From a virus, in UHGV virus genome UHGV-1557986: 30,395 nucleotides of DNA. One strand, 5' to 3'. Below are positions 12,229-17,400 of this stretch, piece by piece. Under the pieces are notes generated by a model. It saw only the letters and a list, made by a program, of their open reading frames with translations. It had not been told where the DNA came from and did not search any database. The position numbers and the translations under genes were made by a program. Position 1 is the first letter of the stretch; each line of letters begins with the position of its first letter.

Positions 12229-12662
12229 TACAGATAATCTTCCACACGAAGACCTAAACGACGGCCTACTTCTTCCAGTACTTTGTGTTCTGCTGGCTCG
12301 ATTTCACCGTCCGCTTCTGCAATTGTCAGCATGTTAACGAATACTTCTTCCGCTTCTTTTGGATCGTTTTTGATATCTTCAATTTCGCGAAGGATATTCA
12401 TGCGACCAACACGGAAGCCAGCTTCCAGTTGCTCGGTAAAGCGGGTAATTGTTGCAGTAATTTCGTTACCAAAATGACTAAGACGCGGATTAGAGCGGAC
12501 AAGCTGATCAAGTTTCGCTGTTTCTTCTTTTTCGATTTCACCATCAGCGGCAGACACCAACAAACAGCCACCGATAATGGCCTCCATCAGATCGCGATTC
12601 TCAACTTTTTTCAGCTCTACTTTTGCAGAAGCGACTTTCTTGCCGAACAATTTACCGAACAT
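12228..12662 (-). CDS. TerB-like (tellurite-resistance TerB family) protein, 144 aa; candidate P1 TciA equivalent
   Basis: Two repeated ADGEIE(K/P)xE motifs separated by about 70 aa, as in TerB domains. Confidence 0.55.
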   Translation of the reverse strand: MFGKLFGKKVASAKVELKKVENRDLMEAIIGGCLLVSAADGEIEKEETAKLDQLVRSNPRLSHFGNEITATITRFTEQLEAGFRVGRMNILREIEDIKNDPKEAEEVFVNMLTIAEADGEIEPAEHKVLEEVGRRLGLRVEDYL

Positions 12663-12809
12663 TGGTTATCCCTCAATAAAAGTGACATATTTATTAGATT
12701 GCGGTGCCGGGTTCCTCCCGGTGTCCTTTGGCTGGTTATCCACCGTGGACGGGGAAACAAGGAGAAATGAATGGACTGATATAACCATTTCCCCGCGTGC
12801 GCTTAGCCG

Positions 12810-12897
12810 CATTCACCGCAACGGAAAGAGCATTCTTGGTGGACCTGTAGATTGGGATATGAACCCGTTACAGGAGAATGCTCTTACCTGTTACGTG
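12810..12897. repeat. tRNA-like palindromic element H1
   Basis: Arms CGCAACGGAAAGAGCATTCT / AGAATGCTCTTACCTGTTACG; loop contains GTAGATTGGGATATGAACCCGTTAC, whose reverse complement is T-arm-like (GGGTTCATATCCC). Confidence 0.5.
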
Positions 12898-13070
12898 CTC
12901 CGTTTCGTGGAGCTAACGGCGGGTGATCGGGCCGCACCAGACTGGACTTATTTCAGCGTTATGCTCATGCCAGAGAATCAAACTGTGATGGTCGGTGCTG
13001 AACTCCGACACAGGGTTGTAGCAAGCCCCGCAAAGCGCGCACTACTGTAGTTGCGGCACATCAGCCTGTG

Positions 13071-13173
13071 CATTCACCACAATGTTGAGAACACTGGTTG
13101 TCACGCTGCAACGCAACATTTATTCGTAGATTGGGATATGACCCCGTTACGCCAGTGTTCTCAACGTTGTAGT
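13071..13173. repeat. tRNA-like palindromic element H2
   Basis: Arms CAATGTTGAGAACACTGG / CCAGTGTTCTCAACGTTG (17/18 complementary); loop contains GTAGATTGGGATATGACCCCGTTAC, shared with H1. Confidence 0.5.
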
Positions 13174-13304
13174 GCCGGTTACGGTTCCGGCCAGGCCTCT
13201 TCCTCAACGGGGTGTTCTCCATACGGACTACCGTTTATTGGTCGTTCCTGCGGTTTATGTTGTGAAGCCAGATGCTTATCTTCTGGTTGCTTCAAAGAGC
13301 TGCA

Positions 13305-13386
13305 CTTCATCACAACGGTAAGAGCACTCGATGCATTTAAGCCAAGCTCCATAAGGGAGAATGCCCTTACCTGTTGTGTTGTGATG
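13305..13386. repeat. tRNA-like palindromic element H3
   Basis: Arms CATCACAACGGTAAGAGCACTC / GAGAATGCCCTTACCTGTTGTGTTGTGATG. Confidence 0.45.
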
Positions 13387-13499
13387 ACCGGTGCTGATCT
13401 CCGGCTTGCGGTTATTTCAGACTCTCACGGGCGTTTAATTGCCCCGCCGAACAGCTCTTTTCCGCAATAGCTGCAATGTCTTTCGCGCATCAGCCTGCG

Positions 13500-13593
13500 C
13501 ATTCATCACAACGGTAAGGGTACTTCGTAGGGATTCGAACCCTCTGCCAAGCTCGGCGATCTCCGACGTCGCAAAATACCCTTACCTGTTGTG
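13500..13593. repeat. tRNA-like palindromic element H4, abutting the 3' end of tRNA-Thr; contains a canonical T-arm sequence
   Basis: Arms CACAACGGTAAGGGTA / TACCCTTACCTGTTGTG; interior GTAGGGATTCGAACCCTC, whose reverse complement holds GGGTTCGAATCCC; no canonical acceptor/anticodon arms found. Confidence 0.5.
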
Positions 13594-13594
13594 C

Positions 13595-13670
13595 TGGTGC
13601 CGATTAACGGACTCGAACCGCTGACATCCTGCTTACAAGGCAGGCGCTCTACCAACTGAGCTAAACCGGC
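13595..13670 (-). tRNA. tRNA-Thr (anticodon TGT)
   Basis: Hand-folded: GCCGGTT acceptor, D-arm GCTC-AGTTGGTA-GAGC, anticodon arm CCTGC-CTTGTAA-GCAGG, T-arm AGCGG-TTCGAGT-CCGTT, CCA encoded. Confidence 0.85.
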
Positions 13671-13672
13671 AT

Positions 13673-13748
13673 TGGCGATGGTGAATGGATTTGAACCATC
13701 GACCCGTTGATTAACAGTCAACCGCTCTAACCGCTGAGCTACACCATC
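13673..13748 (-). tRNA. tRNA-Asn (anticodon GTT)
   Basis: Hand-folded: acceptor GATGGTG/CACCATC, D-arm GCTC-AGCGGTTA-GAGC, anticodon arm GTTGA-CTGTTAA-TCAAC, T-loop TTCAAAT, CCA encoded; 2 nt from tRNA-Thr. Confidence 0.85.
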
Positions 13749-13949
13749 ACTTGCCGGGTACGTCTCCGGCGAGGGCTTCCACCTCCGTATGCTTTTCGGC
13801 GCACCTCGCCCTAGCTGCAATTCGGTAACAGGGGATGCACAACCCTGGCTTCCAGCGTGATTAGCGCCTTCAGCATGACGGGATATACCCGTAAATTCGT
13901 GGAACTGTACCCAAAGTGCTGTTAAGCACCGCTGTTACGCTGAAAAGAA

Positions 13950-14033
13950 AACGCAACAGGAAAGGACGCTGACCAACAGATGGCCCCTTCTCGTTCATCT
14001 GGTTAATCACACCAGCGCCCTTACCTGTTGTGC
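13950..14033. repeat. tRNA-like palindromic element H5 in the leader of the tRNA operon
   Basis: Arms CGCAACAGGAAAGG / CCCTTACCTGTTGTG, same arm family as H1-H4. Confidence 0.4.
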
Positions 14034-14400
14034 CTCCCCGTTCCCTAATACACAGACGGGGACACTCTGCGGTCGATTTTTTGACGGGGGACGACTCATA
14101 CCCCGTGGCATCTGGCTTCTTAGGCCGCTACCATCATAAGATCATCGTTTGCATTTACTTTAATGGTCAGTTTCTAAACCGCCGCAAAGTCGCTAACCAT
14201 GACGAAAACCCTGAAAAAAACGCCCACCCGAAGATGGGCAAACTGGAAGCTCGTAACGCACTTCGGCGTTGCCACTTAGGCGCATGGTCAACCTGGCAAC
14301 TCGGTGGTTTGTCTGGGAGGACTAGGCCCAGCCATGCTTACCGCCGCGCCTGTCGCGGCTAACAGCTAAATCGCTCTATAAATCACGATTCATTGAGGCG

Positions 14401-14430
14401 ATATTACACTAATAAATTTATTAGAGCAAT
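14401..14430 (-). promoter_or_regulatory. C1-type operator(s) overlapping a leftward promoter for the tRNA-tci-ban operon: perfect operator (revcomp ATTGCTCTAATAAATTT, 14414-14430) overlapping a second 15/17 site (14403-14419)
   Basis: On the minus strand: -35 TTGCTC (inside operator), 17-bp spacer, -10 TAATAT. Operator overlaps the dmt stop codon (14421-14423). Confidence 0.6.
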
Positions 14431-17400
14431 ATACCCAAAACGTCATGAGCTACACCTCGAGTGTCCCCCTTACAAGACACAGAACGTCTGGCAAAAAGAG
14501 GTTCCACTCTGAAGCCACTGTCATGATAAAGCTCTCTGATGTTTGGCGCGCCACTGTTAGTAATGAGAACCTTTGCACCTCGACGATGAGCATCCGTCAA
14601 CAGAGACACCAGGCGTTTTTGCTCTTCAAACTTAAAGTCATGACCGGAATAGTTCGTGAATCCCTCTGTATTTGGAAGCGGTTCATACGGCGGATCGCAA
14701 AAGATGACATCTCCTTCTCCGGCAGCTTCAATCACCGCTGCAAAATCACCGCATACAAACTCAGACCGCCCTTCCGCACCGAGGAAGGCTTCCATCTCCT
14801 GTAATGGGAAATACGGAGTTTTATACTTCCCATAACCGACATTGAACTCACCGGCCTGGTTGTAACGCGTCAATCCGTTAAAACAATGTCGGTTCAGGAA
14901 CAAAAACGCCGCTGCGCGATGTAAATCATCATAGACTTGTTTGTTAAACGCATTCCGTACTGCCAGGTATCCTTCCTGTGTGTTGTAGTCCTGGAAGAAA
15001 CGATGTGCCAGAGTGATAAGTGAATGCGCCTCGCGTTGCAGAGTCTTGTAAAAGTTAATCAGGTCAGCATTCACATCATTTAGCAGATTTTCCTGGTATC
15101 CGGCATTCATGAAGACAGCTCCGCCACCAACGAAAGGTTCAATCAGGCGCTTCCCTTCTGGCAAATAGCGAAAGATTTGTTCCAGAACACCAAATTTTCC
15201 ACCAGCCCATTTGAATATGGACCGTTCGAATTCTGCCGCTGGTTTAACTTTTCGCTCTTTTGTTTCACTTCCTTCTTTCTGCCGACATACGGCCTTAGTA
15301 ATCCGATCGCCAATCCAGCGCATTACTGGTATTGCCATACTATTGCCGATCGCTTTGTAACGCGGTCCGTCAGCTGCAAGCATCGCGGCCTCTTCTTCGC
15401 TTAAATCAGGATAGTTATTGCGAAGGTATGCCAGTTCATCTGAAGAAACTTTTTTACGCTTTTCCGTAGGGATCAACGTATGCCCATCAGGAAAACCTTG
15501 CAGCCTTTCACATTCGACAGGGGTAAGACGGCGTATTCTACCGTCGCCGAGCAATACAATTGGTGCTTCATGGTTACATGTTAAAGTTGGTGCCGAATTA
15601 TCGGTTTTTATCTCAGCCCCTCCTTGCCCATGTGCCATGGCAACTATGTTTGTATCATCGCAAGATCTGATAGCGATGTTTGAAGTATATCTGGTAGTTT
15701 CCTTCCCCTCGCCTCTGCTCGGCGCAATATCCCGGCGCACGCCTTCGAACTCAAAAAGTACCGTTGCGGGATCGAGGTCTGTTCGAGCACTTGCGACAAC
15801 AAACACGCGTCGGCGTCGTTGTGCCACTCCGAAGTATTGGGCATCAAGGATTCTCCAGGCCACCTTTCGCTGCGGCCCATAAATACAACCACACTGCGGC
15901 CACTTTGGAGCATGGCAACCGGTTTTGCCATCCCACCGCCAGAACGCGTTACTTTTTCCTGATTCAGGTCGATCACCTGGTTCAAATGGCGCATCTTCTC
16001 CAGCCAATCCGGCAAGGAAACATCCGAAGGCGTTATCTGCCGATGACAAGACTCCTGGGACATTTTCCCAGACAATAACGGCTGGTTTGAGAAATGACTC
16101 AGCCCGTTTGTCGTCAATTGCATTTGCAAGCTCCACATACTTTAAAGTTAGCGCGCCACGCTCATCATCAAGCCCACCACGTAATCCCGCGATACTGAAT
16201 GCCTGACAGTTATGGACCACCGCACCATTGAGGATATAGGAATGATCACCTTCGACTTCTATGTTGTATACAGTATCTAGGCCTACCGATTTAAACTCTT
16301 TGACTGTTCGTAAAAGCATTCCATGAGCCAATCTTGATTTACGTGACAATTTCTGCGGGCAGATTGTTACCTGATAATAATTCCGTTGATTTACCACGCG
16401 ATCCTCGATCACTTTTTTGGGCTCAACTTCAATAAAGCTGACCGAAGAAACATAACCACAAGTCTGTGACAACCCCGCAACGCCCCAAGCAAGCGCAGGA
16501 CTAACACTATTAATTCTAAATCCCGCTTTACCACTTGGTGTCCCATCAGTATCAAGATAGCCTTGTAAAAACACATGACGCAATGGATGCGACATCACCC
16601 ATGCAGGGATACGCTTAGCATGGCTTAACTCGCCAAAATGTTCATTAAGCCAATTGGCATAACACGTATCATTCAAGGTTACTTTGATGCTCCCTCGGAT
16701 TTCGCTTGCCACGGAAAATATGTTTTCTGGTATGCGGCAATGAAACTTTCTCAATTTCTGGCAATTTATGCCAAAAACAACCGCCTTCTTAGATTTACCT
16801 CTCCATCTCCTAATATATCCATCGCCAACATAAGCGCCCGCAAGATACATAGCCTGTTCTTCAGACAAGAACCGAGAACAAATATCTGGAGATGCAATAT
16901 TGAAATTAGTTAGAGCGCACCATTGATATCCCGGCATATCACATGCTGCTCGCCATTCCGGTTCAGACAACAACTCTCTCTTAAAATATGTGCCATTTTT
17001 CCGGGTGTTTTGGGCTTTCCACCGAACAGCCAGGAAGGGATGGTCATTGGTTGTTCTTATACCTAAAGGCTGCCCAACGGCATTAAGTAACCCCGTATTA
17101 GCTATTTTTGAACCAACTCTTTTTACTTGTTGTAACCGCCCGAGATGACTGACTACGTAATCGCCAGGGCAAACATCTTCTATTGGTTTATAACCATTTT
17201 TACAAAGAACCATATGCCCCGCGGTAAAACATGGTGTTCCCCCGACGAGCACGTCAGGGGATTCGATTTCCCCAGCCAAGACTTTTTTGGCAAGTTTTGT
17301 CATGTCGCCAAGGTTGGCGACATGGGGCCAGCGGAGCGCAAGAACGGCCGATGGAAAAGGCTCGATTTCAGCAAACCAAACCGGACGCATACCCAACGGT

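What the first reader, a model, noticed from the sequence alone, without database searches (positions are those of the whole stretch)
12810..14033. Family of five related palindromic elements with tRNA-like cores interleaved with the tRNA genes
About 1.2 kb with no convincing ORF on either strand holds five imperfect inverted-repeat elements (H1-H5) sharing arm sequences (CA(C/T)CACAACGGTAAG(A/G)G and complement C(C/T)CTTACCTGTT(A/G)(C/T)GTG). H1 and H2 also share a loop sequence that is T-arm-like on the transcribed strand. They lie in the C1-controlled leftward transcript with tRNA-Asn, tRNA-Thr, the TerB-like genes and ban. They could be decayed tRNA genes, structured RNA processing or stability elements, or small RNAs.
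Basis: seen in the sequence. Interest (0 to 1): 0.55.

Follow-up and report, generated by a model that had tools for sequence, protein, structure and literature searches.

The report
Phage RNA-processing hairpins with tRNA mimics
Five long RNA hairpins in the leader of phage P1's ban operon belong to a widespread, unannotated family of phage hairpins that most likely mark RNase III cutting sites between tRNAs, small RNAs and mRNA, and two of them carry a conserved look-alike of the initiator-tRNA anticodon arm whose role is unknown.

Summary
The window is phage P1. The five hairpins are real: each folds far better than shuffles (z -4.7 to -8.3) and better on the transcribed minus strand. They are not decayed tRNA genes, and the annotated + strand ORFs upl and plp are probably not genes.

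All five share a 17-23 bp stem with the base CACAAC...GUUGUG and a variable inner "cargo". Such stems start 1-2 nt after the CCA of tRNAs in P1-like and unrelated phage-plasmids. They also open the early-left operons of lambdoid prophages. The matching hairpin in E. coli K-12 Qin contains the published RNase III cut that makes the 190-nt DicF precursor. My best reading, by inference, is RNase III processing hairpins that cut the ban-operon transcript into tRNAs, structured RNA modules and mRNA.

H1 and H2 also belong to a roughly 80-116 nt three-way-junction RNA family with strong covariation. It occurs in about 24 other Enterobacterales species genomes, and a block containing it matches in about half of complete E. 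coli genomes. Its conserved hairpin copies the anticodon arm of initiator tRNA, not a T-arm. H4 carries a canonical T-arm. No Rfam family or paper describing the hairpins was found. The function of the tRNA mimics is open.

The parts
13945..14039 (-). H5: long hairpin of about 26-31 pairs with the base CACAACAGG/CCUGUUG and no tRNA-like cargo. It lies downstream of the dicF-like terminator and about 200 nt upstream of tRNA-Asn.
   Evidence: Fold z = -4.7. Hairpin scan. The P1/D6 comparison shows compensatory C-G to U-A changes and a mismatch kept at the same stem position (sequences).
13673..13748 (-). tRNA-Asn (GUU)
   Evidence: ARAGORN; Rfam tRNA 72.7 bits.
13595..13670 (-). tRNA-Thr (UGU). 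Its CCA ends at 13595, and H4 starts after a single G.
   Evidence: ARAGORN; Rfam 72.9 bits; sequence.
13507..13593 (-). H4: 21-pair stem (CACAAC-A-GGUAAGGGUAUUUUG / CGAAGUACCCUUACC-GUUGUG). Its cargo holds a small hairpin, GAGCUUGGC, and a canonical T-arm (AGGGUUCGAAUCCCU, 13529-13543).
   Evidence: z = -5.4. The identical element follows tRNA-Thr in D6 and in L164.
13376..13512 (-). Structured spacer module A (loosely STnc100-like). Its closing stem is GUUGUGAUGA...UCAUCACAAC. It is 98-99% identical to segments of lambdoid prophages and Klebsiella phage IME207.
13311..13378 (-). H3: 19-pair stem with a 29-nt cargo (hairpin CUCCCUUAUGGAG plus CUUGGC, no T-arm). It is absent from reference P1 because of a 196-bp deletion between the H3 and H4 arms.
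   Evidence: z = -4.9. The model R1 matches only its stem (18.9 bits).
13075..13174 (-). H2: member of the three-way-junction family. It has a 22-23 bp outer stem, an anticodon-arm-like hairpin (GGGGUCAUAUCCC, 13133-13145) and a third hairpin.
   Evidence: R1 59.5 bits, E 1e-14; fold z = -8.3.
12975..13085 (-). Structured spacer module B, a diverged copy of module A with compensatory changes in the first and last hairpins.
   Evidence: Repeat families D3 and D6; fold.
12814..12897 (-). H1: member of the three-way-junction family that lacks the third hairpin. Its anticodon-arm-like hairpin is GGGUUCAUAUCCC (12854-12866).
   Evidence: R1 60.1 bits, E 8e-15; fold z = -6.1.
12696..12826 (-). Structured module C, the leader of tciA. 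It is homologous to the dicB leader in Qin and to the terB leader in P7.
   Evidence: Rfam STnc100 33.9 bits, E 3e-5, below the gathering score of 47. Folds and sequences.
14401..14432 (.). C1 operator and Pban promoter region that drives the whole transcript.
   Evidence: Inverted repeat I2. P1 reference annotation Op72ab/P1ban (L001 3005-3034 = window 14399-14428).

Best explanation
H1-H5 act as RNA, on the minus strand, within the C1-controlled ban-operon transcript. They are copies of a modular 'processing hairpin'. Each has a 17-23 bp stem with a conserved base (CACAAC...GUUGUG), an inner box RAGNNCA/UGNNCUY, and usually one bulge or mismatch. The stem encloses an exchangeable cargo.

The most likely mechanism is as follows.
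- Host RNase III cuts both arms of each stem.
- This chops the long transcript into a leader RNA, a tRNA-Asn/tRNA-Thr precursor, the structured spacer modules, and the tciABC-tRNA(CAU)-ban mRNA.
- The short 3' trailer left on tRNA-Thr would then be trimmed by exonucleases.
- The hairpin tops are released as small RNAs.

What is shown: the RNA structure, its strand, its conservation and covariation, the family relationships, and the placement next to tRNAs.

What is inferred: cleavage by RNase III (by analogy with the counterpart hairpin at the same operon position in Qin), the fate of the products, and any function of the tRNA-arm look-alikes in H1, H2 (initiator-tRNA anticodon arm) and H4 (T-arm).
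For: Structure:
- All five fold far better than shuffles and better on the transcribed strand.

Family and covariation:
- In the H1/H2 family, 55 distinct sequences give 92.3% paired cells against <=49% with slid partners. 29 of 35 pairs change on both sides, and 0/500 shuffles reach the observed values.
- An unfitted MAFFT alignment gives 84.8% against <=51%.
- One stem position is kept unpaired (43 of 52 cells).
- Generic stems show at least 10 complementary versions of the inner box, such as AAGAGCA/UGCUCUU, AAGCGCA/UGCGCUU, GAGGCCA/UGGCCUC and GAGCGGU/ACCGCUC. Their cargos range from 7 to about 130 nt.

Placement:
- The stem starts 1-3 nt after the tRNA 3' end in P1, P7, D6, Ro157 and L165. 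It does the same in unrelated phage-plasmids from Klebsiella (L167: after Asn and Ser) and E. coli (L168: after Thr and Ser).
- In lambdoid prophages the order is hairpin, structured spacer, DicF-position sRNA, then three-way-junction hairpin.

RNase III link:
- Qin has the same order. Its hairpin at L129:873-959 has the same arm motifs (CAUAAC-GCG-AAAGCGCA / UGCGCUU-CCG-GUUGUG).
- The 190-nt DicF precursor has a 5' end made by RNase III and vanishes in a strain lacking RNase III (bioRxiv 10.1101/2023.04.14.536235).
- That 5' end maps to 1135-190+1 = L129:946, inside the 3' arm of this hairpin (939-958).

Not protein-coding:
- The upl/plp frames are broken in the window, P7, Ro157 and L163-L166, and they have no Pfam match.
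Against: - There are no cleavage data for P1 itself.
- The Qin cut is placed from a gel size (190 nt), not from a sequence I could read.
- E. coli RNase III has little sequence specificity. The strongly conserved CACAAC/GUUGUG base and RAG/CUY box are therefore more than RNase III is known to need, and may point to another factor or only to common descent.
- Some stems (H3, H4) are slightly shorter than the ~22 bp that RNase III accommodates.
- Processing alone does not explain why the anticodon-arm look-alike is conserved across very different outer stems.
- The GUUGUG strand can also pair with the 3' end of the next module, so the hairpins may not be the only fold.
- CRISPRi data class the region as non-essential in the laboratory (PMC10695390). 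This is neutral.
Confidence: 0.6

Rival explanations
1. The elements are decayed tRNA genes (pseudo-tRNAs) left over from a once larger tRNA cluster, with no function of their own.
For: - H4 holds an exact canonical T-arm, GGGUUCGAAUCCC.
- H1 and H2 hold a CAU anticodon-arm look-alike. The lambdoid version matches E. coli metY positions 27-43 at 15/17.
- P7 and D6 carry an intact tRNA-Ser(UGA), and Ro157 a tRNA-Tyr, in the same region.
Against: - ARAGORN finds no tRNA there, and the Rfam tRNA model gives no hit even at E<=10.
- The elements are long hairpins or three-way junctions with covarying stems, kept in more than 50 distinct sequences. That is the opposite of decay.
- Most family members have cargos with no tRNA-like part.
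- Intact tRNAs sit beside the hairpins, not inside them.
Confidence: 0.08
2. The hairpins are stabilisers or barriers rather than cleavage sites. In this view, stem-loops placed after tRNAs and sRNAs block 3'-5' exonucleases, or guide RNase E or RNase P, as REP elements stabilise upstream mRNA.
For: - They sit directly 3' of tRNAs and of the DicF-position terminator.
- They are very stable stems.
- A conserved (G/A)UGAAU follows the 3' arm and could be a single-strand nuclease site.
Against: - A stable hairpin 1-2 nt after the CCA would hinder, not help, exonucleolytic maturation of the tRNA 3' end unless something cuts it.
- The Qin counterpart hairpin is where an RNase III-dependent end maps.
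Confidence: 0.12
3. The stems are only a scaffold, and the real function lies in base-pairing sRNA activity. The G/U-rich 3' arms would mimic the GcvB seed, or the CA-rich 5' arms (CACAACA) would sponge GcvB, as the prophage anti-sRNA AgvB does.
For: - The H3 and H4 3' arms plus flank (CUUACCGUUGUGAUG, 13322-13308 and 13518-13504) match GcvB nt 58-72 at 14/15.
- CACAACA is the published GcvB R1 target consensus (PMC4104026).
Against: - Both strands are locked in the hairpin.
- Predicted duplexes of the 5' arms with GcvB R1 are not better than shuffles (-20.1 against a mean of -15.9, sd 3.6).
- AgvB is a different, 51-60 nt RNA at another prophage position.
- The arm sequence varies with compensatory changes, which points to selection on pairing rather than on a seed.
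Confidence: 0.06
4. They are selfish palindromic repeats (MITE- or REP-like, or recombination linkers) that spread between phages, with no RNA function.
For: - There are many copies, in different phage families and at different genome positions (IME207 structural region).
- Near-identical 137-143 nt blocks are shared by P1, lambdoid phages and a Klebsiella phage.
- Deletions and chimeras arise by recombination between copies (SJ46).
Against: - They always have the same orientation relative to transcription in the P1-like and phage-plasmid arrays.
- G-U pairs make the fold better on the transcribed strand.
- Covariation maintains the pairing.
- Their position relative to tRNA 3' ends is fixed.
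Confidence: 0.06
5. They are antitermination signals (nut-, put- or rrn-boxA-like), because the 3' arm often reads UGCUCUU(A/U), like boxA.
For: - The commonest 3' arm is GUGCUCUUACC or AUGCUCUUUCC.
- The hairpins lie just downstream of early promoters.
Against: - The boxA-like letters vary freely with compensating changes in the 5' arm (UGCCCUU, UGUUCUC, UGCGCUU, UGGCCUC, ACCGCUC).
- They are base-paired, whereas boxA must be single-stranded (established knowledge of NusB-NusE binding).
Confidence: 0.04
6. The region encodes the proteins Upl and Plp on the plus strand, as annotated in reference P1.
For: ORFs of 63 and 125 aa are annotated in NC_005856. The window holds ORFs of 157 and 139 aa.
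Against: - The Plp frame is split into 2-3 frames in this window, P7, Ro157 and L163-L166. Upl is absent from or truncated in most of these.
- A 196-bp (not a multiple of 3) presence/absence polymorphism lies inside plp.
- Plp's C-terminus is the antisense of tRNA-Thr.
- Neither has a Pfam match.
Confidence: 0.03

Closest known systems
RNase III processing site upstream of DicF in the dicBF operon of E. coli K-12 prophage Qin (Faubladier et al. 1990; bioRxiv 10.1101/2023.04.14.536235)
   Same: - It has the same hairpin design and arm motifs (CAUAAC...AAAGCGCA / UGCGCUU...GUUGUG).
- It has the same place in the operon: a hairpin, then a ~137-nt structured spacer, then an sRNA with a terminator.
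- P1 also carries homologues of the pre-DicF spacer and of the dicB leader.
   Different: In Qin only one such hairpin is present, and its role was described as a cut site, not as a member of a repeated family. P1 has five copies interleaved with tRNAs. Cleavage of the P1 copies is untested.
RNase III processing signals of phage T7 early and late transcripts, and the rRNA operon processing stalks (established knowledge)
   Same: They are repeated, related hairpins of about two helical turns, with internal irregularities, that cut a polycistronic transcript into units. In rrn operons the stems flank stable RNAs.
   Different: There is no sequence similarity. The elements here carry exchangeable cargos, some conserved in their own right, and sit 1-2 nt from tRNA 3' ends.
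Bacterial Y RNA-like YrlA (Rfam RF02553)
   Same: A long stem formed by the two ends plus a tRNA-like module. H4 has a long stem with a T-arm.
   Different: The Rfam YrlA model does not match any H element. Its only hit, at 23.4 bits against a gathering score of 69, spans the two true tRNAs. E. coli lacks the Ro partner (my own knowledge). H1 and H2 mimic an anticodon arm, not the T/D elbow.
tRNA anticodon-arm mimics used as protein-binding operators, such as the thrS mRNA operator bound by ThrRS (established knowledge), and the ASL-like substrates of VapC toxins (PMC7180214)
   Same: A hairpin copying the stem-loop of one specific tRNA. Here it is GGG/CCC plus CUCAUAA, as in initiator tRNA.
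   Different: No partner protein is known. The element is not next to a start codon. The stem below the three G-C pairs is replaced by a conserved internal loop (AC/AAUC).
Prophage sRNA family STnc100/PasD (Rfam RF02076; bioRxiv 10.64898/2026.05.13.724894)
   Same: The module after H1 gives a weak STnc100 hit (33.9 bits). Both are prophage RNAs.
   Different: The hit is below the gathering score. It concerns the spacer modules, not the hairpins. Published STnc100 and PasD lie near late or lysis genes.

Membership tests
tRNA (Rfam RF00005; ARAGORN) | Cloverleaf with acceptor, D, anticodon and T arms that scores above threshold. | tested here: not met
   ARAGORN finds only Met(CAU), Thr and Asn in the window. 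Rfam tRNA gives no hit on H1-H5 even at E<=10.
tRNA (Rfam RF00005; ARAGORN) | Individual arm sequences typical of tRNA. | tested here: met
   H4 holds GGGUUCGAAUCCC. H1 and H2 hold GGG-NUCAUAU-CCC, matching 12/17 of the metY anticodon stem-loop. The lambdoid relatives match 15/17. These are single arms only.
Three-way-junction 'initiator-ASL' hairpin family (model R1, defined here) | Full-length match to the covariance model: outer stem, ASL-like arm, third hairpin. | tested here: met
   H1 scores 60.1 bits and H2 59.5 bits, both full length. H3 scores 18.9 bits on the stem only. H4 and H5 give no hit. Caveat: H1 and H2 were in the seed alignment.
Three-way-junction 'initiator-ASL' hairpin family (model R1, defined here) | Base pairs maintained by compensatory change. 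| tested here: met
   92.3% paired against <=49% with slid partners; 29/35 pairs with double changes. On the unfitted alignment, 84.8% against <=51%.
RNase III processing hairpin (Qin dicBF type) | Intramolecular double-stranded stem of about two helical turns. | tested here: met
   Stems of 19-31 pairs with 1-3 irregularities. RNase III accommodates ~22 bp (PMC6212723).
RNase III processing hairpin (Qin dicBF type) | Sequence and synteny relationship to the hairpin that holds the mapped Qin cut. | tested here: met
   Shared arm motifs and shared order of modules. The cut maps to L129:946, within the 3' arm at 939-958, as computed from the 190-nt species.
RNase III processing hairpin (Qin dicBF type) | rnc-dependent cleavage with a 2-nt 3' overhang. 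| not testable with these tools
   No end-mapping data for P1 could be found. The supplements of the E. coli RNase III map are not held.
YrlA / bacterial Y RNA (RF02553) | Match to the family model. | tested here: not met
   The only hit is 23.4 bits (gathering score 69) and spans tRNA-Asn and tRNA-Thr, not an H element.
Intrinsic terminator | G+C-rich hairpin followed by a U tract. | tested here: not met
   The only minus-strand terminator-like site is at 14221-14240. H5 is followed by UUUUCUUUU in P1 but not in D6 or L165.
STnc100 (RF02076) | Score at or above the gathering threshold. | tested here: not met
   33.9 bits against 47, and only for 12700-12820, which is a spacer module rather than a hairpin.
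tmRNA | tRNA-like domain plus tag reading frame. | tested here: not met
   ARAGORN finds no tmRNA. Rfam permuted tmRNA scores 26.3 bits against 47 at 14120-14225, covering a tag-like frame only.

The most novel reading that the evidence does not exclude
The conserved cargo of H1 and H2, and of their many prophage relatives, may be a deliberate mimic of the initiator-tRNA anticodon arm. On this reading RNase III releases it as a small RNA early after induction. It would then act as a decoy or competitive inhibitor for something that reads that arm. The most attractive candidates are tRNAfMet-cleaving VapC-type toxins of enteric plasmids. Alternatives are MetRS or the 30S P site. That would make it a widespread RNA-based counter-defence or translation-control device of temperate enterobacterial phages.
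Probability: 0.18. Interest if true: 0.85.

Novelty: new variant of a known kind. Interest (0 to 1): 0.6.

Why it matters
If the reading is right, about 1.7 kb of P1 that is annotated as two doubtful proteins is instead a string of RNA modules joined by a standard processing hairpin. The same hairpin then organises tRNA and sRNA arrays in P1-like and other phage-plasmids and in the early operons of lambdoid prophages. A block that contains the element matches in 2931 of 5426 complete E. coli genomes.

This would give three things:
- A direct, testable rule for how phage tRNAs and DicF-type sRNAs are cut out of their transcripts.
- Corrected annotations for upl, plp, ymfH and several 'hypothetical proteins'.
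- A new, very common structured RNA with an initiator-tRNA anticodon-arm look-alike, whose partner can be sought by pull-down or by genetics with tRNAfMet-targeting toxins.

Tried and rejected
- **Rfam.** Searches at gathering and permissive thresholds on the window and on a lambdoid relative found no family for the hairpins. The microRNA-precursor hits only reflect long hairpins.
- **Y RNA idea.** Rejected, because the YrlA model does not match.
- **Integron attC idea.** The arms do not fit the GTTRRRY core as I recall it. I did not pursue this further.
- **boxA/nut idea.** Rejected, because the boxA-like letters covary with the other arm.
- **GcvB sponge idea.** Duplex energies are no better than shuffles. 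AgvB is a different RNA.
- **Coding hypothesis.** Rejected on broken frames and no Pfam match.
- **Literature.** I searched for P1 tRNA-like elements, initiator-tRNA mimics in prophages, STnc100, CUCAUAA, and P1 transcriptomes. Nothing on these hairpins turned up. Lobocka et al. 2004 is not held, and neither are the supplements of the RNase III map.
- **Qin cut numbering.** I tried to confirm the published '813/814' position through a promoter scan of the dicA-ydfA spacer. It found no consensus promoter, so the cut is placed from the 190-nt size alone.
- **Circularity check.** The first viral scan used the ASL motif itself, so invariance of that motif in alignment A1 is circular. I therefore repeated the retrieval using only the 3' arm.
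Full report
**Identity and context.** The window is phage P1. Region 12600-14450 is 100% identical to P1 record OP279344.1 and 99% identical to the reference NC_005856. The reference annotation places here, on the minus strand, the C1-controlled promoter Pban with operator Op72ab. A 'dicF-like region' follows, then tRNA-Asn, tRNA-Thr, tciA-C, tRNA(CAU) and ban. On the plus strand it annotates two proteins of unknown function, upl and plp. ARAGORN and Rfam confirm three tRNAs and nothing else above threshold.

Repeat finding recovers four-copy families for both arms and inverted repeats for each element. On the transcribed strand the hairpins lie at these coordinates:

| Element | Coordinates |
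|---|---|
| H5 | 14039-13945 |
| H4 | 13593-13507 |
| H3 | 13378-13311 |
| H2 | 13174-13075 |
| H1 | 12897-12814 |

- Each folds 4.7-8.3 standard deviations better than dinucleotide shuffles, and none of 200 shuffles does as well.
- Each is 4-8 kcal/mol more stable as minus-strand RNA than as plus-strand RNA, because of G-U pairs.
- H4 begins one nucleotide after the CCA of tRNA-Thr.

**The plus-strand ORFs are probably not genes.**
- Reference P1 lacks 196 bp relative to this window. The deletion joins the equivalent arms of H3 and H4, and it lies inside 'plp'.
- tblastn shows the Plp frame split over two or three frames in this window, P7, Ro157 and four P1-like plasmids. Upl is missing from or truncated in most of them.
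- Neither product has a Pfam match.
- The Plp C-terminus is the antisense of tRNA-Thr.

**A wider family of hairpins.** Part of the region (13376-13518) is 97-99% identical to non-coding DNA in lambdoid prophages and in Klebsiella siphovirus IME207. Those loci hold the same kind of hairpins. I scanned P1-like phages and plasmids, two unrelated phage-plasmid families (L167 from Klebsiella, L168 from E. coli) and about 150 prophage loci. This gave dozens of distinct hairpins with one common plan:
- a base CACAAC...GUUGUG (sometimes CACAGC...GCUGUG);
- 3-4 variable or unpaired positions;
- a box RAGNNCA/UGNNCUY in which NN covaries in at least ten complementary versions;
- further pairs that differ from copy to copy;
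- a cargo of 7 to about 130 nt that is mostly unrelated between copies.

In the phage-plasmids these stems start 1-3 nt after the 3' end of tRNA-Thr, tRNA-Asn or tRNA-Ser. In lambdoid early-left operons the order is hairpin, structured spacer closed by GUUGUG...CACAAC, an sRNA with a terminator at the DicF position, then a second hairpin.

**Link to RNase III.**
- E. coli K-12 Qin has the same order. Its hairpin at L129:873-959 has arms CCAUAACGCGAAAGCGCAUGG / CCGUGCGCUUCCGGUUGUGG. A 137-nt spacer follows, then dicF at 1083-1135.
- DicF is made from the dicBF transcript as a 190-nt species whose 5' end is produced by RNase III. That species disappears in a strain lacking RNase III (bioRxiv 10.1101/2023.04.14.536235, confirming Faubladier et al. 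1990).
- Counting 190 nt back from the dicF 3' end gives L129:946. This lies in the 3' arm (939-958) of that hairpin.
- P1 also has homologues of the Qin pre-DicF spacer (about 14270-14355) and of the dicB leader, which in P1 is the tciA leader.

So the P1 hairpins most likely work as RNase III sites. That step is an inference. No P1 cleavage data were found, and the Qin position rests on a gel size.

**H1 and H2 belong to a distinct, conserved RNA family.** Their shared loop is not T-arm-like.
- All fold as a three-way junction. The parts are a ~21-bp outer stem of the H type, a second stem, an invariant internal loop (AC/AAUC), three G-C pairs, a 7-nt loop YUCAUAW, and a variable third hairpin.
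- On an unfitted MAFFT alignment, 84.8% of cells pair against <=51% when partners are slid, and 20 pairs change on both sides.
- A covariance model (R1) scores H1 at 60.1 bits and H2 at 59.5 bits. It finds full-length copies (47-103 bits) in the species-representative genomes of about 24 other Enterobacterales. These include Leclercia, Enterobacter, Kosakonia, Citrobacter, Mixta, Erwinia, Yersinia, Pantoea, Raoultella and Shigella.
- Outside that order only the 19-nt motif matches.
- On 55 distinct sequences, 92.3% of cells pair against <=49% slid. 29 of 35 pairs change on both sides, no shuffle reaches the observed values, and one stem position is kept unpaired in 43 of 52 cells.
- A block containing the element has a match in 2931 of 5426 complete E. 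coli genomes. It is unannotated or lies under 'hypothetical protein' or ymfH.
- Rfam has no match.

**The hairpin copies the initiator tRNA anticodon arm.**
- E. coli metY positions 27-43 read GTCGGGCTCATAACCCG. The lambdoid element reads GACGGGCTCATAACCCA, which is 15/17, with 14 consecutive identities.
- P1 H1 and H2 keep the three G-C pairs, U33, CAU and A37 (12/17).
- Because the first retrieval used this motif, I repeated it with a pattern from the 3' arm alone. Of 122 elements, 93 have the exact motif. Most of the rest keep CUCAU (loops CUCAUUC or CUCAUUA), and only a few have lost it, for example e14 in K-12.
- The motif also occurs with quite different outer stems (L011, L028, L066, L115).
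- It is therefore conserved in its own right, which a role as a mere cleavage site does not explain.
- Enteric VapC toxins cleave tRNAfMet in this arm and recognise ASL-like structures (PMC7180214). A decoy role is conceivable but untested.

**The other cargos.**
- H4's cargo has a canonical T-arm. It is identical in D6 and in L164.
- A lambdoid hairpin (L008, L133) has two T-arm-like hairpins with compensatory changes.
- H3 is an H4 relative without the T-arm.
- H5 is a plain long hairpin. Comparing P1 and D6 shows compensatory changes and a mismatch kept at the same place.

**What lies between the hairpins.** Three copies of a second structured module follow H4, H2 and H1, at 13512-13376, 13085-12975 and 12826-12696. 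Their closing stems and terminal hairpins show compensatory changes. Only the third gives a weak Rfam STnc100 hit. The GUUGUG strand of each hairpin can alternatively close the following module. Cleavage of the hairpin could therefore trigger refolding, but that is speculation.

**Verdict.** The elements are new members and variants of a known kind (RNase III-type processing hairpins of phage operons). They form an undescribed, very widespread family, and one subfamily carries an initiator-tRNA anticodon-arm look-alike that deserves experiments.

Noticed in passing
window 14120-14152 (minus strand), with context 14082-14225: A ten-codon frame, GCA AAC GAU GAU CUU AUG AUG GUA GCG GCC UAA, encodes ANDDLMMVAA*. 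It resembles a tmRNA (SsrA) tag and is followed by a G+C hairpin. Rfam permuted tmRNA scores 26.3 bits (E 0.001, below the gathering score of 47) and beta_tmRNA scores 14.7 bits. P7 and D6 keep it with a synonymous (CUU/CUG) and a conservative (V/A) change. No tRNA-like domain is present, and ARAGORN calls no tmRNA.
   Followed up: partly
window 12696-12826, 12975-13085, 13376-13512 (minus strand): Three copies of a ~110-135 nt structured module follow H1, H2 and H4. The closing stem is GUUGUGRUGA...UCAYCACAAC, with compensatory changes. The same module precedes dicB in K-12 Qin (L129:1143-1300) and lies inside 'ymfH' of e14 (L130:1360-1480). Only one copy gives a weak Rfam STnc100 hit.
   Followed up: partly
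window 13376-13518: This segment is 97-99% identical over 137-143 nt to non-coding DNA of lambdoid phages (mEp460, several Stx phages) and of Klebsiella siphovirus IME207. That is far above the similarity of the flanks, which implies recent exchange of this RNA module between unrelated phages. In IME207 it sits in a small unit with its own promoter-like site, a hairpin and a tRNA-Ser.
   Followed up: partly
window 13323-13494 compared with NC_005856 (L001 2101-2123): Reference P1 lacks 196 bp (H3 plus module A) through recombination between the equivalent arms of H3 and H4. Phage SJ46 and one viral contig carry an H2/H1 chimera joined at the shared ASL-like core. The repeats therefore drive deletions within the array.
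   Followed up: yes
window 12858-13623 (plus strand): The reference genes upl and plp are probably mis-annotations. Their frames are broken in most P1 relatives, they have no Pfam match, and plp overlaps tRNA-Thr in antisense.
   Followed up: yes
window 13504-13518 and 13308-13322 (minus strand): The 3' arms of H4 and H3 plus flank read CUUACCGUUGUGAUG, which is 14/15 identical to nt 58-72 of E. coli GcvB at the start of its R1 seed. I expect about 0.015 such matches by chance. Predicted pairing of the opposite arms with GcvB is no better than shuffles.
   Followed up: partly
window 14203-14355 (minus strand): The 'dicF-like region' of P1 ends in the only strong intrinsic terminator of the leader (14221-14240). 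The stretch at about 14270-14355 is homologous to the 137-nt spacer upstream of DicF in Qin. Rfam's DicF model matches neither P1 nor the lambdoid DicF-position RNA.
   Followed up: partly
L003 (P7) 1126-1212 and L004 (D6) 1131-1217; L005 (Ro157) 1708-1794; L165: The tRNA content of the array varies among P1 relatives. Additional tRNAs found are Ser(UGA), Tyr(GUA) and Arg(UCU). Each extra tRNA lies between modules and is followed by its own hairpin. D6 annotates its tRNAs on the wrong strand.
   Followed up: partly
L130 1548-1638 (E. coli K-12 e14, under 'ymfH'): K-12 itself carries a full-length copy of the three-way-junction element (71 bits) after a DicF-position terminator, but its anticodon-like loop is mutated (GGGUUAAUAACCC). 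The ymfH ORF that covers it is doubtful.
   Followed up: no
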